A stretch of DNA of 64,000 nt, taken from NCBI GenBank assembly GCA_902610815.1, contig CACLXG010000002.1, positions 834 through 64,833 of the forward strand, written 5' to 3'. Positions 5,157 through 29,408 of the stretch are shown piece by piece. The stretch is from an uncultured Candidatus Actinomarina sp. Its GTDB lineage: Bacteria; Actinomycetota; Acidimicrobiia; Actinomarinales; Actinomarinaceae. Under the pieces are notes generated by a model. That model was not told the origin of the DNA and ran no database searches. It saw nothing but the letters and a program-made list of their open reading frames with translations. The stretch's first letter is position 1. The number at the start of each line of letters is the position of its first letter. The position numbers and the translations under genes are program-made.

Positions 5157-6122
5157 TTAACTAGATATTCTCTCAGTTATAAAAGAGATAACTTTTTGGG
5201 AGTCAACGCCTATACAAATATTTACTTTTCTTCTATTTTCCCAAGGTTTTAAACGCTCCCCAAGACCTTCTTCATTATCTGAAATTCCCATTCCCATCCA
5301 AGTTTTTCCCCTGCTAATACCCTTAGTTTCTACTTTTATTGGATAACTCAGGGTTTCGAAATATTCTGGATGAACTAAATATGTTATGGCTGATGAGTCA
5401 TGAACGGGCATTCCATTATCTTGAAAAAAATCTTTCAAAAAATCGAAATAGAAAGGATTAATTTTGCCTATATGTTTAGATTTATCATTATCAAACGAAC
5501 CTAATGTAACAACCTGTTCCTCATTCATAAAAACATTATTTGTTACATCGAGACCAACCATAGTTATTTCACACTGAGCAGAAAACACAATATCAGCTGC
5601 TTCAGGGTCATTAAGTATATTTGCCTCTGCTGTTGGAGTTGCATTGCCTGGAGATTGAGCATTGCCACCCATTAAAACTATCTCTTTTATCTTTGAGTCT
5701 ATACCCTCGTGAATAGTCAGTAGATTTGCAATATTAGTCAATGGCCCAACAGGAACAAGAGTTATTTCATTCGGATTAGTTTCAATAATTTCTTTTAAAA
5801 AAGTAACAGCATCAACATCTAAGGGTTTTGTTACAGGTGAAGACAAAGCAGCATTACCTTGACCATTATCTCCATGAACAAAGGAAGCCGCACCTCTAAA
5901 ATCTCCATTCAAAGGAACATTCGCTCCCTCAATTACCGGTACATCTATCCTTTCTGCAATTTCTAAGAGCCGAAGAGCATTCTCAGTGCAAGTTGTAGTT
6001 ACTGCATTACCAAAAATTGTTGTTAAGCCAAGCACCTCTAACTCAGGTGAGTTAAGTGCGACAAAAATAGCCAACGAGTCATCTACTCCCGGATCTGTAT
6101 CAATTACAATTTTTTTGACCAA
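5157..6122 (-). CDS. inosine-uridine-preferring nucleoside hydrolase family protein (paralog 1)
   Basis: N-terminal IDTDPGVDDSLAI aspartate cluster, then GPLTNIA and LNDPEAADIVF. Confidence 0.85.
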   Translation of the reverse strand: MVKKIVIDTDPGVDDSLAIFVALNSPELEVLGLTTIFGNAVTTTCTENALRLLEIAERIDVPVIEGANVPLNGDFRGAASFVHGDNGQGNAALSSPVTKPLDVDAVTFLKEIIETNPNEITLVPVGPLTNIANLLTIHEGIDSKIKEIVLMGGNAQSPGNATPTAEANILNDPEAADIVFSAQCEITMVGLDVTNNVFMNEEQVVTLGSFDNDKSKHIGKINPFYFDFLKDFFQDNGMPVHDSSAITYLVHPEYFETLSYPIKVETKGISRGKTWMGMGISDNEEGLGERLKPWENRRKVNICIGVDSQKVISFITERISS

Positions 6123-6175
6123 TTTTTTCCTTTTATTCGACCATCTTAAATGGATGATTTAAACTTTGTTTATAT

Positions 6176-7168
6176 ATGTCACAAAAAAAATTTATTATAG
6201 ATGCAGATACAGGATCTGACGATGCAGTAGCTATATTAATGGCATTAAGAGACCCAACAGTGGAGGTTTTAGGAATAACACTTGTGTCAGGAAATGTTCC
6301 GCTCCAACAAGGAATTTTAAATACTTTATACACTGCAGAATTATGTGAGGTACCAGTTAATGTTTATGCTGGAGCTGACAAACCCTTAACAAGGAATTAC
6401 ATAGAAGAATATACACTTAAAGATTTCTCAGCACGTGTACGAACACTATCAGGAGATTCAGTCAGCGGACAGTGCGTTCACGGTGTTGATGGAATGGGAG
6501 ATATTGGGATTAAGCCAGAGAATGAAAAATATGAAGAACAAGGTGCAGTAGATTATTTAATTAAGTCTTTTTCGGAATCTCCAAACGAAATAACTTTAGT
6601 TACCCTCGGGCCACTTACAAATATAGCAAACGCAATTAATGAAGACCCAACTATTGTAAATAAAATTGAGCATTGTTACATAATGGGAGGCACTTCCGAT
6701 GGAACAGGAAATGTTTCTGCGGCTGCGGAATATAACATATGGGTTGATCCTGAGGCAGCAAAAATAGTCTTTGATTCTGGACTAGACATCACTATGGTTG
6801 GTTGGGATAATTCATTCAAATATGCAATGTTGAAAGAAAAAGAAATTAAAGATCTTAAATCCTTAAATACAAAATATGCTGATTTCTGTGTAGACATTCA
6901 AAAAACCTTAACAGAACTTACTCATGAAACTTATGGATTTTATGGTTTTGATTTACCTGATCCCATCACAATGGCTATTGCATTAGATAATTCCATTATT
7001 TTAGAGTCACAACAACTCCATGTACTTGTTGACACTAGAGATGGAATAACAAGAGGTCAAACTATTGTAGATTATTTTAATGCTGAGAAGGGCAAACAAA
7101 ACGTGAGGGTTGTTACAAAATCAAATAATAAAGGTTTTTTAAACTTGTTGACTTCTTTAGTAAAGTAA
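6176..7168 (+). CDS. IU-nucleoside hydrolase family protein (paralog 2)
   Basis: IDADTGSDDAVAI, LGPLTNIANAI, AAEYNIWVDPEAAKIVF. Close paralog of 28440..29408. Confidence 0.85.
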   Translation: MSQKKFIIDADTGSDDAVAILMALRDPTVEVLGITLVSGNVPLQQGILNTLYTAELCEVPVNVYAGADKPLTRNYIEEYTLKDFSARVRTLSGDSVSGQCVHGVDGMGDIGIKPENEKYEEQGAVDYLIKSFSESPNEITLVTLGPLTNIANAINEDPTIVNKIEHCYIMGGTSDGTGNVSAAAEYNIWVDPEAAKIVFDSGLDITMVGWDNSFKYAMLKEKEIKDLKSLNTKYADFCVDIQKTLTELTHETYGFYGFDLPDPITMAIALDNSIILESQQLHVLVDTRDGITRGQTIVDYFNAEKGKQNVRVVTKSNNKGFLNLLTSLVK

Positions 7169-7839
7169 TGATTGTACAAATTTATACACTCCAATCTGTG
7201 GAGGAAGCTTTAGAAGTAGAATCTGTAGGTGTTCATAATATTGGATTAGCACCAGCCTCAATAGGACTTCCAGGTGAAATATCATATGAAACAGCTAAGT
7301 CTATTTGTGATGAGGTTCAAAATTCAAAAACAGTAGCACTTTCAGTCTCGAACAATATTGAAGAAATCATAGAGATGGTCATGTTTGTAAAACCTGATAT
7401 TCTTCACTTATGCGGTGAGCCTGGTGAGCTGAATGCCTCAAGAGTAAAAATACTAAGAGATCGCTTAAAAAGCGCTGATAAGGAAATTCCTATTATGCAA
7501 GCTATTTCAGTGGAAGATATGAGTGCTGTGGAATTTGCAAAAGAATATGAGGATGTCTCAGATTACTTTATTCTCGATACCTCTACTTCTCTGGTGAAGG
7601 GGGTTGGCGCTAGTGGTAAAGTTCATGACTGGAATGTTTCAAAAGCAATTGTTGATTCTGTAAAAATTCCAGTTGTTTTGGCAGGAGGTCTATCTCCAGA
7701 AAACGTAAGAGATGCAATAGAAAAAGTTAAGCCTTGGGGCGTTGACTCGTTGACTCATACTAATAAAACTTTAGACGATGGAAATTTTGTTAAAGACATA
7801 ACAAAAGTAAGAGAATTTTTCATAAATGCAACAAGATAA
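7168..7839 (+). CDS. phosphoribosylanthranilate isomerase (TrpF/PRAI)-like TIM-barrel protein, non-canonical active site
   Basis: Aligns by eye to PRAI along its length (ILHLCGE, FILDT, GASGKVHDWN, VLAGGLSPENVRDAI, GVDS). The KICG general-base Cys is QIYT here. Confidence 0.65.
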   Translation: MIVQIYTLQSVEEALEVESVGVHNIGLAPASIGLPGEISYETAKSICDEVQNSKTVALSVSNNIEEIIEMVMFVKPDILHLCGEPGELNASRVKILRDRLKSADKEIPIMQAISVEDMSAVEFAKEYEDVSDYFILDTSTSLVKGVGASGKVHDWNVSKAIVDSVKIPVVLAGGLSPENVRDAIEKVKPWGVDSLTHTNKTLDDGNFVKDITKVREFFINATR

Positions 7840-8776
7840 TATAAGGAAAAAAGTTAATATATTAGGCGATGCCAATGTAGACATGATTATTAATTTATCT
7901 GACAAACAAAACCTTGGAGAACCGTCTTTATTTTCAGGGGGATCATCCGCTAATGTAGCATCCGGATTATCTAAGCTGGGTGTCGAAGTTTCCTTTTTTG
8001 GATCATTAGGTAAAGACATGTACGGAAAATATGTCGTTGATGAGATGAAAGCAGATGGTATTGATGTAAGTAATCTAGAGTTATTAGATAACTACAGTAC
8101 AGCAATGGTTATTGGTGTTGTTGAAGAAAACAGTGAAAGGCATCTTTTTCTTTGGCCACCCAAAGAAGGCGCACACAATCAATACACTTTTGGTGATAAA
8201 TCTAAAGAAGATTTACTTAATTGTGATTGGCTGCATGTATCAGGAATTAGTCTACGTTTTAGCCCTGTAAAAGAGACAATGCTTGAAGCAATGAGATTAT
8301 GTAAAGAAAATAACAAAACAGTTTCCTTTGATCTTAATTTAAGGTCCGAACTCTGGGGATTAAGTGAGAGCTTTAAAGAAACTGTTTTAGAAGCAGTGTC
8401 TCTCTCAACTATTGTATTTGGAAATTTGCATGAAGAGTTTTTGTTATTATTTGATGAAAATGAGGACAATCTTGATAAAAATATTTCAAACAAGCAAATG
8501 TTTATTTGTAGAAATGGAGATAAGGGAGCATTAGGAATTACAAAAAATGATAAAGTTACATCAAATGCTATTCCAATTTCTCCCGTAGATTCAGTTGGCG
8601 CAGGAGATGCTTTTAATTCCGGATTTATATATGCATCATGTAAGGAAAAAGATATGAAAGAGTCTTTAGATACAGGAAATCAAGTAGCTGCATTCAAACT
8701 TTTAGGTTCAGGTGCAAGACACCTTCCAACAAAAGAATTACTTCAAGAGTTTAATGAAAATAACTTAAACGCTTAA
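7826..8776 (+). CDS. PfkB-family carbohydrate/nucleoside kinase
   Basis: GGSSANVASGLSKLG and C-terminal GAGDAFNSGF motifs. Confidence 0.75.
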   Translation: MQQDNIRKKVNILGDANVDMIINLSDKQNLGEPSLFSGGSSANVASGLSKLGVEVSFFGSLGKDMYGKYVVDEMKADGIDVSNLELLDNYSTAMVIGVVEENSERHLFLWPPKEGAHNQYTFGDKSKEDLLNCDWLHVSGISLRFSPVKETMLEAMRLCKENNKTVSFDLNLRSELWGLSESFKETVLEAVSLSTIVFGNLHEEFLLLFDENEDNLDKNISNKQMFICRNGDKGALGITKNDKVTSNAIPISPVDSVGAGDAFNSGFIYASCKEKDMKESLDTGNQVAAFKLLGSGARHLPTKELLQEFNENNLNA

Positions 8777-8819
8777 AAATGCTTTTAAATATTTCATACC
8801 GATATTATTAAATATTTAC

Positions 8820-10097
8820 ATGAGTAAAAAAGTCTATCTTCTCTGGTTTGGCCAAACAGTTTCTTGGACAGGCTCTTCTATGTCTTTCTTCGCAATAGGT
8901 GTATGGATATTCGAAACAACAGGAAAAGCAAGTGCTTTGTCTACAATCTTGTTCACCGTAGCAATAGTGGGTGTAGTTACAGGACCTTTTGGAGGGGTGC
9001 TTGCTGACAGGTTTCCAAGAAAAACATTAATAATAACTTTTGATTTAATTATTGCTGTACTCATGTGTGTTATTGGATATCTTGCACTGAATGAAGCTTT
9101 GACGCTGACCTCACTTATTCCGTTTGCTTTAGCTTTTGGAATTTTTGAAATAGCACACTGGACAACATGGAGTGCTTTTTTAGGCGATGTTGTAAAGAAA
9201 AATGAGGTAACAAAAGTTTCAGCTTTGTTTGAAAGTGCAGAAGCAATCTCTGTTCTTATTGGTCCAATAGGAGGAGCCTTCATTTATTCATTTTTTGGTT
9301 TAACAGGAGTAATTCTTGTTGATGTAATTACTTGTTTATTTGGAATAGCAACAATTACATTATTTAAAAGTAAAAAAATTGAGCCCAAAAGTAACCTGAG
9401 TGTAAAAAATATTTACTTTGATTTAATTGAAGCATACAACTGGTTAAAGAAACAAAAAGGGTTACTTTCATTAGTACTTATTTTGTCAGTATGTAATTTT
9501 CTGTGGGGCTTCACACAAGTACTTATTCCTCCAATGATTTTAAGCTTTGCCGATGCAACTGGTCTAGGAATTGTTGAGTCGAGCGTTGGCCTGGCTTTTC
9601 TTTTTGGCTCAGTTATTTCTCTTCGTTTTGCTGACTGGCTCCAAGGAAATTTAAAAGTAGCTATATATTGTGGAATTTTAGGTGGGCTGGCCTTAATTAT
9701 TGGATCAGTAAGACCAAGTATTTTTCTTCTATGTATAAATGGTGTTATTGCTGGAATTAGCGGAACTGTTCAATATACTGTTTCTTCTGGGGCTTGGTTA
9801 GCTATTACAACTGAAGATATTAGAGGCAGAGCTTTGGCATTAAGGGGAACGATTGCTCAAATGCTACGGCCACTAGGGGTTGTTATTGCAGGACCTTTAG
9901 GAGACTATTTAGAGTTTACGTTTTACCCAAAAAATGTTGATATGTTATATCCACTTGTAGGAACTGGACCTGGAAGGGGGTATGCATTTCTATATTTCCT
10001 TGTAGGGATATTTTATGTAGTCATCTGGGTTTTAAATTTTAATAATAAAAATCTTAAATTCCTTTCAAAGCAGGTAATTGAAATAACAAACAACTAG
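8820..10097 (+). CDS. MFS transporter
   Basis: About 12 TM segments, with a GGVLADRFPRK loop between TM2 and TM3. Confidence 0.7.
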   Translation: MSKKVYLLWFGQTVSWTGSSMSFFAIGVWIFETTGKASALSTILFTVAIVGVVTGPFGGVLADRFPRKTLIITFDLIIAVLMCVIGYLALNEALTLTSLIPFALAFGIFEIAHWTTWSAFLGDVVKKNEVTKVSALFESAEAISVLIGPIGGAFIYSFFGLTGVILVDVITCLFGIATITLFKSKKIEPKSNLSVKNIYFDLIEAYNWLKKQKGLLSLVLILSVCNFLWGFTQVLIPPMILSFADATGLGIVESSVGLAFLFGSVISLRFADWLQGNLKVAIYCGILGGLALIIGSVRPSIFLLCINGVIAGISGTVQYTVSSGAWLAITTEDIRGRALALRGTIAQMLRPLGVVIAGPLGDYLEFTFYPKNVDMLYPLVGTGPGRGYAFLYFLVGIFYVVIWVLNFNNKNLKFLSKQVIEITNN

Positions 10098-10109: not shown

Positions 10110-10775
10110 ATGAAAGATATAAAAATTACAGATAATCATCCTGTAAAAAAAAGAAAGACACTCGGACCTATTGGAAGGTTTCTTTTAAAACTTGTTAATT
10201 GGAATATAGTTGGTAATTTACCTGATAAAAAAAGAATTATAATCGCATCAGCACCACACTCATCTACTTTCGATGCCATTTATGCCTATTTTGTTTGTTT
10301 AGCAGTAGATTTAAAATTTTACTTTCTTGGTTCCGTTTCAATGTTTACGCGTATTGTTGTACCGCTTCCATTTAAAAAAAACCCAGATAAACTAGGCATA
10401 CCTCATCCTTTCGGAAAAATTCAAAATAAACTACTCCTTGAATTTGGAGGAATACCTGTATGGAGAGCAAAGCCAACAGGCGTTACACAACAGGTGATTG
10501 AACAATTAAAAACAAAAGAGAAATTTATTTTATATTTAACTGTTGAAGGTGAGATGAAAACAAACCAAACCATAAAAAGTGGTTTTCATTATATTGGAAA
10601 AGCATTGGATGCCACTGTTGTTCCAACCAAGATAGATTATAAAAACCGAAGATTCCAACTAATGGAAGTTTTAGAACTTACAGACTCAGTCGAGGCAGAT
10701 AAAGAAGCATTAATGGACAGGTATCATTTAGTTCAAGGTAAAAACAAAACATTTTTTAAGCCAGGTTCAAAATAA
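10110..10775 (+). CDS. acyltransferase (PlsC/LPLAT-like)
   Basis: HSSTFD matches the HX4D motif; EGEM-type second block (VEGEMK). Confidence 0.5.
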   Translation: MKDIKITDNHPVKKRKTLGPIGRFLLKLVNWNIVGNLPDKKRIIIASAPHSSTFDAIYAYFVCLAVDLKFYFLGSVSMFTRIVVPLPFKKNPDKLGIPHPFGKIQNKLLLEFGGIPVWRAKPTGVTQQVIEQLKTKEKFILYLTVEGEMKTNQTIKSGFHYIGKALDATVVPTKIDYKNRRFQLMEVLELTDSVEADKEALMDRYHLVQGKNKTFFKPGSK

Positions 10776-26255: not shown

Positions 26256-26524
26256 TTTCTACCTTTATATAAAAAAGCAAGACCAGCAATCAGAAGAATT
26301 ACAGAAAGGTATAAATAAACACCGAATACTGATCCAACTGCTGCAATTGTCACTAACCCAAATCCAGTTCTTTGATCATTGTTATAAGAGGGTAGGTAAT
26401 AAAAAATTTTGTTTAAGATATGATTTTTATCTTTTATCCTTTTTTCATCGATCCAAAATACAATGAAAATAATCACAAATGTTGCTAATAAAATAAGCTG
26501 TTCTCTTAAGGGTAAAACAACCAT
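26252..26524 (-). CDS. small membrane protein
   Basis: 90 aa with 3 hydrophobic segments. Shares 1 nt with the rbsK stop. Confidence 0.4.
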   Translation of the reverse strand: MVVLPLREQLILLATFVIIFIVFWIDEKRIKDKNHILNKIFYYLPSYNNDQRTGFGLVTIAAVGSVFGVYLYLSVILLIAGLAFLYKGRN

Positions 26525-27399
26525 TATATTGAATATGAAGATTGAGTACCAGGTCTAGTCACAGAATCAGAGGCTTTTTCAACACCAATTTTTATTGCAT
26601 CTTCTGTCGTATATCCTGATGCAATTCCGTATGAAAAGGCTCCAACAAAAGCATCTCCAGCACCTGTAGTATCAATAGCATTAACTTTTGGAGCTTTAAT
26701 TTTTTTCACAGAACCTTCTTTACTAACATAAGCAGCTCCTTCTTCGCCGAGTGTAACAATTAAGTTTGATTTTATAGAATTAGAGTACTTAATTAAATTT
26801 GAATCATCAAATGCATTTAATCCTGAAATAGTCTCAAATTCTACCTCATTTGGAATAAACCAATCTGTAGAATCCAAAAGTATTTGTGATGGGATTTTCG
26901 CTGGTGCTGGATTTAAAATTGTTGTGATGCTATTGGTTTTTGCATATTGAAAAACTTTTTCTGTTACTTCAAGTGGAATTTCAAACTGACCAATTATAGC
27001 CTTTAAATCTTCTATTTTTTTTATAGCTTCTATGGCTTCATCACCATTAATTAAATCATTTGCACCAGACACAACAATAATTCTGTTTTGTCCTGAGCTA
27101 TCAACCCATATTGGAGCAACCCCACTTGATCCAAGCACTCTTTGAATGAAGTCAACATTAACGCCGCTTTTCTTAAAATTTTCTATAGTCATATCTGCAT
27201 ATACATCGTCGCCTAAGCAAGTTATCATATATGTTTCAGCACCCATAAGTCCTGCCATAACGGCTTGATTTGCTCCCTTACCACCAAAACCCATTTTGTA
27301 TTCATTTCCAAAAACAGTCTCACCGTCAGATGGAGTGCTATCTACATAAGCAATTTGATCAATATTAGAGCTGCCTACTATACAGATTTTTGAAGCCAT
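26524..27399 (-). CDS. rbsK: ribokinase
   Basis: GGKGANQAVMAG and DTTGAGDAFVGAF. Start moved to MASKICIVGSSN, which removes a divergent overlap with 27449. Confidence 0.8.
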   Translation of the reverse strand: MASKICIVGSSNIDQIAYVDSTPSDGETVFGNEYKMGFGGKGANQAVMAGLMGAETYMITCLGDDVYADMTIENFKKSGVNVDFIQRVLGSSGVAPIWVDSSGQNRIIVVSGANDLINGDEAIEAIKKIEDLKAIIGQFEIPLEVTEKVFQYAKTNSITTILNPAPAKIPSQILLDSTDWFIPNEVEFETISGLNAFDDSNLIKYSNSIKSNLIVTLGEEGAAYVSKEGSVKKIKAPKVNAIDTTGAGDAFVGAFSYGIASGYTTEDAIKIGVEKASDSVTRPGTQSSYSI

Positions 27400-27448
27400 G
27401 AAAGAATTATAAAAATATTTTATTATTTTATCTACTATGATTTGATTT

Positions 27449-28429
27449 ATGGGCATTAATTGGGAATCTAAAGTTTTGAGTTCGGTAGGGAATGTAATTG
27501 ATAATGCTCAACATATATCAGTAAGTGAAAAATATATAGAAACGGTTGCTGATTGGCTAGCTTACGAAGAGTTTGGACTTCCTAAAAACAATAAAACAAA
27601 TAAAGATCCCGATAATTTTATTCGAACGACAATGCTTATTAATACATTAAACTTTGCGTTTACTGATTTTGATACTTCGATTAAGTATGCAATAGAACGA
27701 GATGGACAGACACTTTCAGACAGTGAAGCCATGTTTGCTCAAGTACATGAAGCAATTGATTCTGGAATTAATCTACTTAATGGTGAAGTATTAGAAAAAT
27801 TAACAATTGAAGAACTAGAAAAAATTTTTAAAGGAAATATTGAAATGCCAATGCTTAAAGAACGAGTAGAAATACTAAATGTTGTAGGCACAAAACTTGT
27901 AGATAGCTATGAAGGGGATTGGTTGAATTTTATTAAAAACGGCCCACGAAAACTTTATTCAAATGGTGAGGGGCTAATTGAAAGATTAGTTTTAGAATTT
28001 CCCCGATTTAATGATTCTTCGATTTATTTAGATAAAGAGGTAAATTTCTATAAATTAGCACAATTAGCATTTTGGGGTATTCATGGAGAACTTGCTCACT
28101 CGGATTATTTTAGAATAGAAGACATGGAATCTATGACAGCATTTGCAGACTACATTGTACCGGTTGCCCTTATTGTTATGAAAATTACTCGATATTCAGA
28201 TGAGTTAGAAGAAAAAATTATGAATGGAAAAATGATAGAAAGAGATTCAACTGAAGAAATTGAGATACGTGCAGCTTCGATATATGCAACAGCAAAGCTC
28301 ACTGAGAGTGTGAACAGGAGAAGAAAAGACCTCGAAAGTTTAATAATACCCCAACTTGATTACCGACTTTGGAAGCATTACCACGCAACACACTTTCCTC
28401 ATCATTTAACTTATACAACAATGTATTAA
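27449..28429 (+). CDS. queuosine salvage protein, DUF2419 / Qng1 family
   Basis: Blocks match human QNG1 (C9orf64) as I recall it: TLNFAF, VNFYKLAQL, MTAFADYIVP, EIEIRAAS, LDYRLW, C-terminal PHHLTYTTMY. Confidence 0.7.
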   Translation: MGINWESKVLSSVGNVIDNAQHISVSEKYIETVADWLAYEEFGLPKNNKTNKDPDNFIRTTMLINTLNFAFTDFDTSIKYAIERDGQTLSDSEAMFAQVHEAIDSGINLLNGEVLEKLTIEELEKIFKGNIEMPMLKERVEILNVVGTKLVDSYEGDWLNFIKNGPRKLYSNGEGLIERLVLEFPRFNDSSIYLDKEVNFYKLAQLAFWGIHGELAHSDYFRIEDMESMTAFADYIVPVALIVMKITRYSDELEEKIMNGKMIERDSTEEIEIRAASIYATAKLTESVNRRRKDLESLIIPQLDYRLWKHYHATHFPHHLTYTTMY

Positions 28430-28439
28430 AGTATTAAAT

Positions 28440-29408
28440 ATGATAAAAAGAAAATTTTTTATAGACACCGATACTGCTTCTGATGATGCAGTCGCACTAC
28501 TCATGGCTTTAGAGACACCAGATGTCGAGGTATTAGGTGTGAGTATTGTATCAGGAAATATGCCAGTAGAACAAGGAAGTATCAATGCTCGATACACTAT
28601 TGAGCTATGTAAAAAAGATACACCCGTATATGTGGGCTATGACAAACCAATGTTAAAAAAAAGAGAGCATGCAGACTGGTTCCATGGTCCTGATGGAATG
28701 GGTAATATGAATTACCCTGATCCAAAGTCTACAGAAAATAAATCCGACTATAAAGAAGTGTTAGATAGATTAATTAACCAATATCCAAATGAAATTACCC
28801 TAGTTACACTTGGCCCTTTAACAAATCTGGGACAATTTATATTGGAGTACCCCGAGTCGTATCAAAAAATAAAAGATATATATATTATGGGAGGCGCTTC
28901 AACTACTGTCGGAAATGTCACTCCAGCTGCTGAATACAATATTTGGTGTGACCCAGAAGCAGCAGATATTGTTTTTCAATCAGGTCACCCAGACATAACC
29001 ATGATTGGTTGGGAGCTGTGTCGTGGTGGAGCAAACTTAACAGAGAGTGAAATGGATTTTGTATATAGTTTTAAGACAGCAAAAGGAGATTTCGCAATTG
29101 ATTGTAACAAGCATGCCCTAGATTCGAGCCAAAATTGGCTTGGGGATCCGGGCTTAGGTTTACCTGACCCTGTTGCAATGTCAGTCGCTTTAAATAAAAA
29201 GGTAGTTCTTAAAGCAGGTAGGCATAATGTAAAAATTGTACTGGATGGCCCAGCAAGAGGAATGACTATAGTTGATGAACTAAATGTTGGTGAGAGCGAA
29301 CCTCATATAGATGAAAATTGGTCACACACAACTAAAAATATTAATGTTATTTGGGAAATTGATAATCAGGAGTGGAAAGAAACTCTATATAAAACTCTAA
29401 AAAACTAA
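28440..29408 (+). CDS. IU-nucleoside hydrolase family protein (paralog 3)
   Basis: IDTDTASDDAVAL, LGPLTNLG, AAEYNIWCDPEAADIVF. Confidence 0.85.
   Translation: MIKRKFFIDTDTASDDAVALLMALETPDVEVLGVSIVSGNMPVEQGSINARYTIELCKKDTPVYVGYDKPMLKKREHADWFHGPDGMGNMNYPDPKSTENKSDYKEVLDRLINQYPNEITLVTLGPLTNLGQFILEYPESYQKIKDIYIMGGASTTVGNVTPAAEYNIWCDPEAADIVFQSGHPDITMIGWELCRGGANLTESEMDFVYSFKTAKGDFAIDCNKHALDSSQNWLGDPGLGLPDPVAMSVALNKKVVLKAGRHNVKIVLDGPARGMTIVDELNVGESEPHIDENWSHTTKNINVIWEIDNQEWKETLYKTLKN

What the first reader, a model, noticed from the sequence alone, without database searches (positions are those of the whole stretch)
5157..10097. PRAI (TrpF) homologue without the catalytic Cys, coupled to a PfkB kinase between nucleoside hydrolases
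The 7168..7839 product aligns to PRAI over its whole length. By eye against Thermotoga PRAI as I recall it:
- VQIYTLQSVEEALEVESVGVHNIGL versus VKICGITNLEDALFSVESGADAVGF
- FILDT versus LLLDT
- GASGKVHDWN versus GGSGKTFDWS
- VLAGGLSPENVRDAI versus VLSGGLNPENVRSAI

The general-base Cys of KICG is Tyr here (QIYT), while the general-acid Asp (ILDT) is kept.

No other trp gene is nearby. Instead its start shares a base with the stop of an IU-nucleoside hydrolase, and its end overlaps a PfkB kinase, followed by an MFS transporter. A divergent second hydrolase lies upstream.

This context suggests a ribosylamine/N-riboside 5-phosphate isomerase working on a phosphorylated nucleoside-like substrate rather than in tryptophan synthesis. 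The pathway idea is speculative.
Basis: partly seen in the sequence, partly recalled or inferred. Interest (0 to 1): 0.6.

Follow-up and report, generated by a model that had tools for sequence, protein, structure and literature searches.

The report
TrpF-like barrel paired with sugar kinase
The gene is not a tryptophan-synthesis enzyme but a member of a widespread, uncharacterised sister family of TrpF that has swapped its catalytic cysteine for tyrosine and travels as a unit with its own fructokinase-like kinase, so thousands of database entries named "phosphoribosylanthranilate isomerase" are probably misnamed.

Summary
In detail: the five ORFs, the 1-nt and 14-nt overlaps and the Cys-to-Tyr change are all there.

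**Not TrpF.**
- The genome (1.1 Mb, 93.7% complete) has no TrpC, TrpA, HisA or PriA.
- TrpC was found in none of 41 genomes of the genus.
- All five other genomes tested carry a canonical TrpF alongside this type.

**A separate clade.** The protein belongs to a distinct PRAI-fold clade (100/99 support) with its own signature:
- QIY at strand 1;
- an invariant His80;
- the general-acid Asp137 kept;
- the AGGL motif kept;
- VDSxTxT[NDS] in place of VDVSSGVE.

**Paired with a kinase.**
- In one subclade, at least 29 of 41 members sit directly beside a PfkB kinase.
- These partner kinases form their own clade whose branching mirrors the barrel tree.
- One genome fuses the two genes.
- In two genomes a GHMP-like kinase lies beside the barrel and no PfkB does.

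**Nucleoside link.** Nucleoside hydrolases lie nearby in only about 7 of 41 loci, against 0 of 38 in the other subclades.

**Best reading.** A kinase-then-isomerase module acts on a furanose-type sugar or sugar-amine. In this lineage it was recruited into a nucleoside-scavenging cassette. The substrate is unknown.

The scan had already met this pair on other DNA.

The parts
5157..6122 (-). IU-type nucleoside hydrolase, divergently transcribed (321 aa; DTDPGVDD metal motif)
   Evidence: ORF. Pfam IU_nuc_hydro 287.8 bits. Best NCBIfam match is RihC at 240 bits, below the 382-bit cut-off. Conserved at 85-95% identity in the same position in metagenome loci L099-L103.
6123..6175 (.). 53-bp AT-rich divergent intergenic region between the two hydrolase genes (presumed promoters; not tested)
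   Evidence: Sequence read.
6176..7168 (+). Second IU-type nucleoside hydrolase, first gene of the + strand unit (330 aa; DADTGSDD motif)
   Evidence: ORF. Pfam IU_nuc_hydro 294.4 bits. The stop TAA shares its last A with the next ATG.
7168..7839 (+). QIY-type PRAI-fold paralogue (223 aa): Tyr6 replaces the Cys base, with His80, Asp137, AGGL 172-175 and VDSLTHTN 192-199
   Evidence: Pfam PRAI 60 bits. All NCBIfam TrpF equivalogs are far below cut-off. AF2 pLDDT 96.8. Foldseek top hits are TrpF structures, TM 0.76-0.86. Signature; tree.
7826..8776 (+). Partner PfkB kinase (316 aa), fructokinase/AIRs-kinase-like, overlapping the barrel gene by 14 nt
   Evidence: Pfam PfkB 169 bits. Closest PDB chains are the fructokinases 5EY7 and 3HJ6 and the AIRs kinase 1TYY. 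It keeps the VcFRK fructose-contact residues (with PMC6240065). It lies in the partner-kinase clade.
8820..10097 (+). MFS transporter (425 aa, DHA3/Mef/EntS-like), 43 nt downstream of the kinase
   Evidence: Pfam MFS_1 92 bits and MFS_3 50 bits. TIGR00900 161 bits, below cut-off. Same position in L098-L102 at 86-97% identity.
10110..10775 (+). 221-aa ORF of unknown family, co-linear with the cassette in relatives. Membership of the unit is uncertain.
   Evidence: No Pfam hit. Present after the MFS gene in L098 and L099, and further downstream in L102.

Best explanation
The 7168-7839 product is a member of an uncharacterised sister family of TrpF, called here the 'QIY-type' PRAI fold. It works as the second enzyme of a two-gene module with the adjacent fructokinase-like PfkB kinase.

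**Proposed mechanism (inferred).**
1. The kinase phosphorylates the primary hydroxyl of a beta-furanose-type substrate, either a ketofuranose/ketosamine or an anomerically substituted ribofuranoside.
2. The barrel binds that phosphate through the retained GA[TS]G and AGGL loops and a remodelled strand-8 loop that often carries a positive residue.
3. It opens the sugar ring with the retained general acid Asp137.
4. It carries out a C1/C2 aldose-ketose or Amadori-type isomerisation. Tyr6 and/or the newly invariant His80 would replace the Cys7 base.

**Role in this lineage.** In this marine, tryptophan-auxotrophic, streamlined genome the module has been joined to two IU-type nucleoside hydrolases and an MFS transporter as one scavenging cassette.

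**Shown:** it is not TrpF; it is a separate clade with a changed active site; it is coupled to the kinase and co-inherited with it.

**Inferred:** the order of the steps, the isomerase chemistry and the class of substrate.
For: **Not TrpF.**
- This is the only PRAI hit in the genome. There is no IGPS, TrpA or HisA/PriA; the weak His_biosynth hit is PyrD.
- IGPS was found in 0 of 41 genomes of the genus.
- 5 of 5 genomes with a QIY-type gene also hold a canonical PRAI scoring 118-143 bits, against 33-58 bits for the QIY type.
- Canonical TrpF genes of class relatives sit between IGPS and a PALP (TrpB-like) gene.

**Separate clade.** The split has 100/99 support. Fixed differences lie at strand ends:
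- K to Q4
- C to Y6
- Q to H80
- H to C/A82
- G to A148
- SPR Arg lost
- VDVSSGVE to VDSxT[HKR]T[NDS], plus an insertion

**Retained features.** D137, GA[TS]G, AGGL and KD.

**Coupling to the kinase.**
- A PfkB lies directly downstream in 27 of 80 GTDB loci, all in one subclade of 41 rows.
- 25 of 26 partner kinases form one clade, whose branching mirrors the barrel tree.
- There is a 529-aa PRAI-PfkB fusion in L060.
- A GHMP-like kinase lies beside the barrel in L044 and L056, where no PfkB does.

**Kinase pocket.** The kinase keeps the fructose-contact residues of VcFRK, which AIRs kinase shares: D15, D19, G39, N43, F108, W110, the DxNLR Arg and the GAGD Asp.

**Cassette conservation.** The cassette is kept at 75-96% identity in marine metagenome contigs.

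**Nucleoside-related neighbours.**
- IU-NH recurs in L018, L037, L039, L041, L043 and L053.
- A Bmp nucleoside ABC system recurs in L039 and L041.
- A cytidine deaminase recurs in L023, L037 and L039.
- This is against 0 of 38 in the other subclades.
Against: - No biochemical data exist for any member, and the substrate is unknown.
- Most neighbourhoods of the pair are heterogeneous: 140 Pfam families among 135 neighbours.
- Three other subclades (Binatia, Desulfobacterales, Alphaproteobacteria) have no adjacent kinase. The family's chemistry therefore need not depend on a kinase.
- Tyr is an unusual general base, so the enzyme may not be an isomerase at all.
- The strand-8 phosphate loop is rebuilt, so phosphate binding is inferred, not shown.
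- I had no model coordinates and could not inspect the pocket.
Confidence: 0.6

Rival explanations
1. The kinase makes the 5'-phosphate of a nucleoside-like N-riboside whose sugar hangs on an exocyclic NH (a ribosylamine). The barrel then performs a forward Amadori rearrangement to a 1-amino-1-deoxyribulose 5-phosphate.
For: - The fold and the acid Asp of an Amadori isomerase are kept.
- The kinase is as close to aminoimidazole-riboside kinase 1TYY (91 bits) as to fructokinase (101 bits).
- IU-NH, Bmp nucleoside ABC systems and cytidine deaminase recur next to the pair in four lineages.
- One representative is fused to Maf.
- Precedent: Chlamydia TrpF rearranges the ribosylamino-pyrimidinone 5'-phosphate made by RibA (PMC4161248).
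Against: - Standard nucleosides, with the sugar on a ring N, cannot undergo this chemistry (established mechanism).
- The Amadori product is not a central metabolite, and no conserved third enzyme is present to use it.
- The nucleoside context is present in only about 7 of 41 loci.
- The anthranilate-binding Arg and the Cys base are both lost.
Confidence: 0.15
2. A reverse-Amadori 'deglycase' module. The kinase phosphorylates a ketosamine (Amadori compound), as FrlD/FraD do. The barrel converts the ketosamine phosphate back to a glycosylamine phosphate, which falls apart into an aldose phosphate and a free amine. The barrel would be a non-homologous stand-in for the SIS-fold FrlB/FraB.
For: - Two genes would suffice to reach central metabolites, which fits a self-contained pair.
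- The kinase has a fructofuranose-type pocket.
- In L027, L029 and L036 the pair sits with CUT1 ABC sugar importers and ROK or RpiR regulators. This is the architecture of the B. subtilis frl operon as described in PMC12632257.
- Carriers are common in rumen, gut and digester MAGs.
- The fold's native chemistry is the Amadori rearrangement.
Against: - The kinase scores only 67 bits on the FrlD model, against a cut-off of 247.
- PRAI acts on a pentose, so a hexose would need a longer pocket, and this was not examined.
- Nothing explains the hydrolases in this window.
- SIS proteins co-occur in L041 and L053 rather than being replaced.
- This is pure inference with no experimental hint.
Confidence: 0.15
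3. An ordinary ribose route. The hydrolases free ribose, the PfkB is a ribokinase, and the barrel is a ribose-5-phosphate (or other plain sugar-phosphate) isomerase or epimerase.
For: - The gene order hydrolase-barrel-kinase is translationally coupled.
- R5P to Ru5P is the oxygen analogue of the TrpF reaction.
- The fold belongs to the ribulose-phosphate-binding barrels.
Against: - The genome already has a near-canonical ribokinase at 26524-27456, scoring 290.6 bits on TIGR02152. The partner kinase scores 93.7 bits there.
- The genome also has RpiB.
- The partner kinase carries fructokinase-type, not ribokinase-type, sugar contacts.
- Most carriers of the pair have no hydrolase nearby.
Confidence: 0.1
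4. A true or relic TrpF, or a Chlamydia-style folate bypass in which TrpF replaces GTP cyclohydrolase I.
For: - Pfam and public annotation call it PRAI.
- An orphan TrpF with a second job exists in Chlamydia (PMC4161248).
Against: - No Trp pathway is found in the genome or the genus.
- The Cys base and the SPR Arg are missing.
- Canonical TrpF co-occurs with the QIY type in 5 of 5 other genomes.
- FolE (125.9 bits) and RibA are both present here.
- The protein is strongly conserved and shows no sign of decay.
Confidence: 0.03

Closest known systems
TrpF, N-(5'-phosphoribosyl)anthranilate isomerase (EC 5.3.1.24; T. maritima 1NSJ/1LBM, P. furiosus 4AAJ)
   Same: - (beta-alpha)8 fold, with TM 0.76-0.86 and a Pfam PF00697 match.
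- The general-acid Asp at strand 6.
- The GxxG loop, the AGGL loop at strand 7 and the C-terminal KD...F helix.
   Different: - Cys7 becomes Tyr.
- KICG becomes QIY[STE].
- QLHG becomes HL[CA].
- The SPR Arg is lost.
- VDVSSGVE becomes VDSxTxT[NDS], with a 4-6 residue insertion that models as a beta-hairpin.
- It is never found in trp operons.
- It co-exists with canonical TrpF.
- It scores 27-83 bits against equivalog cut-offs of 172-270 bits for the monofunctional TrpF models.
Chlamydia trachomatis TrpF (CTL0581), which converts the RibA product to dihydroneopterin monophosphate (PMC4161248)
   Same: - An orphan PRAI-fold enzyme in a genome without a full Trp pathway.
- It shows that the fold can rearrange a nucleotide-like ribosylamine 5'-phosphate.
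   Different: - The Chlamydia enzyme keeps PRA isomerase activity and, by the paper, is a TrpF orthologue.
- It has no kinase partner.
- Here FolE is present, so no bypass is needed.
FrlD/FrlB and FraD/FraB Amadori-compound systems (PfkB kinase plus SIS-fold deglycase)
   Same: - A PfkB kinase is followed by an enzyme of Amadori-type chemistry.
- In some loci the same CUT1 ABC importer plus regulator layout is present.
   Different: - The second enzyme is a PRAI-fold barrel, not a SIS protein.
- The kinase is not an FrlD orthologue (67 bits against a cut-off of 247).
- No activity is known.
Salmonella aminoimidazole riboside kinase STM4066 (1TYY) and Vibrio cholerae fructokinase (5EY7)
   Same: The partner kinase aligns end to end (91 and 101 bits). 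It shares the furanose-contact residues and the GAGD catalytic Asp.
   Different: About 30% identity. It lies below every NCBIfam equivalog cut-off (fructokinase 145.6 against 450). Neither characterised kinase is reported with a PRAI-fold partner.

Membership tests
TrpF / PRAI (EC 5.3.1.24) | PRAI (beta-alpha)8 fold and a Pfam PF00697 match | tested here: met
   60 bits against a gathering cut-off of 22.7. AF2 pLDDT 96.8. Foldseek best hits are 1DL3, 4AAJ, 1LBM and 1NSJ, E 5e-15 to 7e-14.
TrpF / PRAI (EC 5.3.1.24) | Catalytic general base Cys at the end of strand 1 (Cys7 of T. maritima PRAI) | tested here: not met
   The residue here is Tyr6. The column is C in 21/21 canonical sequences and Y in 75/77 of the subfamily.
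TrpF / PRAI (EC 5.3.1.24) | General acid Asp at strand 6 (Asp126 of T. maritima PRAI) | tested here: met
   Asp137 in ILDT aligns to LLDT of 1DL3/1LBM. It is D in 76/77 of the subfamily.
TrpF / PRAI (EC 5.3.1.24) | Anthranilate-side motif S-P-R (the role of the Arg is recalled from the 1LBM literature) and the VDVSSGVE phosphate loop | tested here: not met
   Position 36 is G here and variable in the subfamily, against R in 14/21 canonical sequences. VDSLTHTN replaces VDV[SA][ST]GVE.
TrpF / PRAI (EC 5.3.1.24) | Reaches a curated TrpF equivalog score | tested here: not met
   The best match is NF002298 at 83.4 bits against a cut-off of 215. All 13 TrpF models are below cut-off.
TrpF / PRAI (EC 5.3.1.24) | Works within a tryptophan pathway (TrpC, TrpA and TrpB present) | tested here: not met
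   No IGPS or Trp_syntA in the genome, which is 93.7% complete. IGPS is in 0 of 41 genomes of the genus. The best TrpB-like tblastn hit is only 30% identical.
TrpF / PRAI (EC 5.3.1.24) | PRA to CdRP activity, or trpF complementation | not testable with these tools
   Needs a bench assay.
QIY-type PRAI paralogues (uncharacterised clade defined here) | Signature Q4-I-Y6, H80, D137, GA[TS]G, AGGL and VDSxTxT[NDS], plus placement in the clade | tested here: met
   All motifs are present. The clade is split from canonical TrpF at 100/99, and the query sits with its genus relatives at 100/99.
QIY-type PRAI paralogues (uncharacterised clade defined here) | Adjacent partner kinase of the dedicated PfkB clade | tested here: met
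   14-nt overlap. The window kinase falls in the partner clade, which holds 25 of 26 partners at SH-aLRT 97.
IU-nucleoside hydrolase (PF01156) | Family match and the N-terminal DxDxxxDD metal/ribose motif | tested here: met
   288 and 294 bits. DTDPGVDD and DADTGSDD are seen in the translations. Base specificity is not assignable, because all equivalogs are below cut-off.
PfkB fructokinase (NF006957) / ribokinase (TIGR02152) | Equivalog score | tested here: not met
   Fructokinase 145.6 against 450, ribokinase 93.7 against 299.65. The sugar-contact residues of VcFRK are nevertheless conserved.
FrlB/FraB Amadori deglycase systems | SIS-fold deglycase next to an FrlD/FraD-type kinase | tested here: not met
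   No SIS gene is in the window cassette. The FrlD model scores 67 bits against a cut-off of 247. The resemblance is one of logic only.

The most novel reading that the evidence does not exclude
The QIY-type barrel is a new enzyme activity on the PRAI scaffold. With its dedicated kinase it would form a previously unrecognised two-step route for sugar-amine conjugates. The route is either a PRAI-fold 'reverse Amadori' deglycase, non-homologous to FrlB/FraB, or an Amadori isomerase for exocyclic-N ribosides such as ring-opened or damaged nucleosides. It would be used from rumen Firmicutes to streamlined ocean Actinobacteria.
Probability: 0.25. Interest if true: 0.8.

Novelty: new variant of a known kind. 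Interest (0 to 1): 0.55.

Why it matters
- TrpF is a textbook model of (beta-alpha)8-barrel evolution. A large natural sister clade that has replaced the catalytic base and rebuilt the phosphate loop, yet kept the acid, is a ready-made case of functional divergence on that scaffold.
- Every public name seen for these proteins was 'phosphoribosylanthranilate isomerase' (one search found 2820 relatives at 90% clustering). Metabolic reconstructions may therefore wrongly credit a Trp step.
- The conserved kinase partner makes the activity directly testable.
- In one of the smallest free-living marine genomes the module is an accessory cassette, found in 7 of 65 species of the order. It may mark use of a specific dissolved organic compound.

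Tried and rejected
**Tools and searches that gave nothing usable.**
Contexts came from the search for related loci and the genome search instead.
- The 58-sequence alignment A1 was too diverse for the search for related loci, so a 16-sequence one was used.
- The 'longer' homologue search found only two odd fusions, with sigma-70 r2 and with AhpC. They are probably gene-calling artefacts and were not used as evidence.
- The ESM Atlas returned only PRAI-named clusters.
- Six literature searches found no description of this clade. One search was badly framed and wasted.

**Context analysis.**
- An unbiased Pfam tally of 135 neighbour ORFs gave no consistent third partner. IU-NH was the commonest family with only 7 hits.
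- Contexts of the kinase-less subclades were uninformative: GNAT, metallo-beta-lactamase, guaA/efp, SAM hydroxide adenosyltransferase, glyoxalase.

**Readings rejected.**
- Housekeeping ribokinase plus Rpi: RbsK-like and RpiB genes are present.
- FolE bypass: FolE is present.
- PriA-type compensation: there is no HisA or PriA, and the weak hit is PyrD.

**Limits.**
- ORF calling in loci was a crude longest-ORF heuristic, so some high-GC loci show shadow ORFs.
- I could not obtain model coordinates to inspect the pocket.

Full report
**1. Observation.**

The region holds five ORFs:
- a nucleoside hydrolase at 5157-6122 on the minus strand;
- on the plus strand, a second hydrolase (6176-7168), a 223-aa PRAI-like protein (7168-7839), a PfkB kinase (7826-8776) and an MFS transporter (8820-10097).

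- TAATG, a shared base at 7168;
- a 14-nt overlap of the barrel and kinase genes;
- a 53-bp AT-rich spacer between the divergent hydrolases.

Pfam confirms all five families.

**2. It is not TrpF.**

The Pfam PRAI score is 60 bits. Every curated NCBIfam TrpF equivalog is missed by a wide margin; the best is 83 bits against a cut-off of 215.

The genome is 1.1 Mb in 7 contigs and 93.7% complete. Its gene content argues against a tryptophan role:
- There is no other PRAI-family gene.
- There is no IGPS and no TrpA.
- There is no HisA, HisF or PriA. The one weak His_biosynth hit is a dihydroorotate dehydrogenase next to pyrF.
- IGPS was found in none of 41 genomes of the genus, so the lack of the pathway is a lineage trait and not an assembly gap.
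- TrpB queries from class relatives hit only a 30%-identical PLP enzyme.

Other genomes point the same way. Five genomes that carry this type of barrel are a Desulfosalsimonadaceae MAG, a deltaproteobacterial MAG of the Binatia-type subclade, a Bradyrhizobium, a Halothermothrix and an Anaerolineae MAG. All five also carry a canonical PRAI scoring 118-143 bits, while the paralogue scores 33-58 bits. In class relatives the canonical gene sits between IGPS and a TrpB-like PALP gene.

There is no Trp pathway for this gene to complete, and the Tyr is conserved.

**3. A distinct clade with a rebuilt active site.**

An exhaustive profile-free search gave 4203 relatives at E up to 0.001. It found 688 cluster representatives at E up to 1e-10 and 50 at E up to 1e-30. 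The better-scoring hits, at roughly 85 bits and above, are mostly of this type. They carry Q-I-Y at the end of strand 1 together with VDSxTxT[NDS] after strand 8. The canonical sequences in the same list carry KICG together with VDVSSGVE.

A maximum-likelihood tree of 79 such sequences and 21 canonical ones splits the two groups at 100/99.

Fixed differences, all at the catalytic face:

| Canonical TrpF | This clade |
|---|---|
| Lys | Gln4 |
| Cys | Tyr6 (75/77) |
| Gln | His80 (76/77) |
| His | Cys/Ala82 |
| Gly | Ala148 |
| S-P-R Arg present | Arg lost |
| VDVSSGVE strand-8 loop | VDSxTxT[NDS]; the Gly position becomes His/Lys/Arg; 4-6 residues inserted |

Retained are Asp137 (the general acid), the GxxG loop, AGGL and the C-terminal KD...F.

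The AlphaFold model is confident, with pLDDT 96.8, and it places a small beta-hairpin at 199-209. Its nearest solved folds are TrpF structures, TM 0.76-0.86.

I found no paper describing the clade. Every public name seen for it is 'phosphoribosylanthranilate isomerase'.

**4. The conserved partner is the kinase, not the hydrolases.**

Eighty loci from species-representative genomes span Chloroflexota, Actinomycetota, Bacillota, Pseudomonadota, Thermodesulfobacteriota, Binatota, Spirochaetota and one archaeon.

- In 27 of the 80 loci a PfkB gene homologous to the window's kinase lies directly downstream on the same strand, often overlapping.
- Two more loci, L040 and L043, have an adjacent PfkB that the BLAST threshold missed.
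- All of these fall in one subclade of 41 rows (89/89 support), which also holds the query.
- 25 of 26 partner kinases form one clade (SH-aLRT 97). It is apart from other PfkB paralogues in the same loci and from the window's own ribokinase-like gene. Its branching mirrors the barrel tree: the Bellilinea pair with Erysipelotrichaceae, a Clostridiales MAG (L048) basal to the group of the Halanaerobiales pair with the Lachnospiraceae and Oscillospiraceae MAGs, and the query with its genus.
- In an Oscillospiraceae MAG the two genes are one 529-aa ORF with PRAI and PfkB domains.
- In a gammaproteobacterial MAG and a Desulfobacterium MAG a GHMP-kinase-like gene lies next to the barrel and no homologue of the partner PfkB was found in those loci.

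The pair thus behaves as one evolutionary and functional unit.

Other subclades have no kinase neighbour and uninformative contexts. These are the Binatia type, the Desulfobacterales type next to guaA and efp, and the alphaproteobacterial type.

**5. The nucleoside link is real but local.**

In marine metagenome contigs the whole five-gene cassette is kept at 75-96% identity, with the same flanks.

Within the order, only 7 of 65 species genomes have the barrel gene:
- Two, including this one, carry the hydrolase cassette.
- Four carry the pair between an Orn/DAP-type decarboxylase gene and an F420H2-quinone-reductase-like gene.
- One carries it after an epimerase gene.

Elsewhere:
- IU-NH genes flank the pair in two Halanaerobiales genomes, with three copies each, a Bmp/PnrA nucleoside ABC system, a GntR regulator and a cytidine deaminase.
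- They also flank it in a Thermanaerothrix MAG, together with an ADP-ribosylglycohydrolase and an amidohydrolase.
- They lie nearby in two further Chloroflexota MAGs (L018, about 7 kb away; L053, a partial hit at the locus end) and in Bifidobacterium xylocopae.

That makes about 7 of 41 loci, against 0 of 38 in the other subclades. This is more than chance would give, but it is a minority.

An unbiased Pfam tally of 135 neighbouring ORFs found IU-NH to be the commonest family, with only 7 members and no universal third partner.

In an Acidiferrobacteraceae MAG, a Rhizobium and an Erysipelotrichaceae MAG the pair sits instead with a CUT1 sugar ABC importer. The first two also carry ROK or RpiR regulators.

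**6. What the kinase says.**

The closest solved relatives are the Vibrio and Halothermothrix fructokinases, the Salmonella aminoimidazole-riboside kinase, IolC and KDG kinases.

Every residue reported to hold beta-D-fructofuranose in the Vibrio enzyme has its counterpart here. The reported residues are D26, D30, G45/A46, N49, F113, F115, R176 and D266 (PMC6240065). The riboside kinase shares them as well.

The pocket therefore fits a beta-furanose with a substituent on the anomeric carbon. It does not tell a ketose from a riboside.

The genome has a separate near-canonical ribokinase at 26524-27456, scoring 290.6 bits on TIGR02152 against 93.7 for the partner kinase. It also has RpiB. A plain ribose route through this pair would therefore be redundant. 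FolE and RibA are both present, so a Chlamydia-style folate bypass (PMC4161248) is not needed.

**7. Mechanism proposed.**

Shown:
- It is a separate clade.
- It is coupled to the kinase.
- The acid Asp and two of the three phosphate-loop motifs are retained.
- The Cys base and the anthranilate Arg are lost.

Inferred:
- The kinase acts first.
- The barrel binds the new phosphate and opens the furanose ring with Asp137.
- It shifts the carbonyl between C1 and C2 by aldose-ketose or Amadori-type chemistry, with Tyr6 and/or His80 as the base.

Three substrate classes remain open, with my rough odds:
- a ketosamine phosphate run backwards to an aldose phosphate plus amine, an analogue of FrlB/FraB on a different fold (0.15);
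- a plain sugar phosphate, of which ribose is the least likely (0.1 for the ribose case).

The forward Amadori reading has a chemical weakness. Ordinary nucleosides cannot react, and the product would need a further enzyme that is not conserved. The reverse reading needs only two genes but leaves the hydrolases unexplained.

**8. Comparison and verdict.**

The protein works on the TrpF scaffold but fails five tested defining features of TrpF:
- the Cys base;
- the SPR Arg and the VDVSSGVE loop;
- the equivalog score;
- the pathway context.

It should not be filed as TrpF. It is a new variant of a known kind: an uncharacterised, widespread paralogue family with a dedicated kinase.

Earlier notes of this scan had already met the same pair in other genomes. 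One follow-up reached the same conclusion, that the pair is conserved and its substrate unknown. My trees, the fusion, the GHMP-kinase neighbours and the co-occurrence test extend that conclusion independently.

The taxonomic label 'Actinomarina' comes from earlier notes. It fits the size, the 34% G+C and the marine hits, but I did not verify it.

Noticed in passing
window 26524-29408: A second nucleoside-cleaving set lies 18 kb downstream. It holds a near-canonical ribokinase (26524-27456, minus strand; TIGR02152 290.6 bits against a cut-off of 299.65), a 326-aa ORF with no NCBIfam hit (27449-28429) and a third IU-NH (28440-29408). The 1.1-Mb genome holds four IU-NH and four PfkB genes in all.
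   Followed up: partly
L060:8001-9587: Natural fusion of the QIY-type barrel (residues 8-218) and the partner PfkB (233-514) in one 529-aa ORF of a goat-gut Oscillospiraceae MAG.
   Followed up: partly
L044:5393-6619 (-) and L056:6868-8001 (+): A GHMP-kinase-like gene lies next to the barrel where no homologue of the partner PfkB is present. In L056 it overlaps the barrel's start by 4 nt. This looks like a non-orthologous kinase swap.
   Followed up: partly
P0153 (390 aa, metagenome representative): A QIY-family barrel fused to a Maf nucleotide pyrophosphatase domain (Maf 198 bits). It is a single case and could be a gene-calling artefact.
   Followed up: no
L077, L082-L084, L086, L088, L090-L093: A Desulfobacterales-type subclade has its own variant signature: TDT or IDT for LDT, mostly CDW for HDW, and VDSCTxTN (ADxCT in two). 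In most of these loci it sits at a conserved housekeeping position between guaA (divergent) and efp. All of these rows lack an adjacent kinase.
   Followed up: partly
whole genome G000 and genus: No IGPS in 41 of 41 genomes of the genus. In G000 there is no TrpA, HisA, HisF or PriA. The lineage appears auxotrophic for tryptophan and probably for histidine.
   Followed up: partly
window 10110-10775: A 221-aa ORF with no Pfam match follows the MFS gene. It keeps that position in related metagenome contigs at 88-95% identity.
   Followed up: no
P0027, P0112: Close homologues (71-78% identity) are labelled 'Gammaproteobacteria/Proteobacteria bacterium MAG' at NCBI. Yet contigs at 75% identity share the whole cassette and its flanks with this genome. 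The public bins may be mis-assigned, or the cassette may have moved between marine lineages.
   Followed up: no
L099:6713-7330 and L096:3075-3666: In the 95%-identical relatives a roughly 200-aa ORF is inserted between the kinase and the MFS gene. It is 30% identical to the window's 1077-1619 product, and the window lacks the insertion.
   Followed up: no
L075:8682-9407: In Bradyrhizobium forestalis the barrel gene is followed 16 nt later by a SAM hydroxide adenosyltransferase (DUF62) gene, an adenosine-forming enzyme. This is not conserved in the other Bradyrhizobium loci.
   Followed up: no
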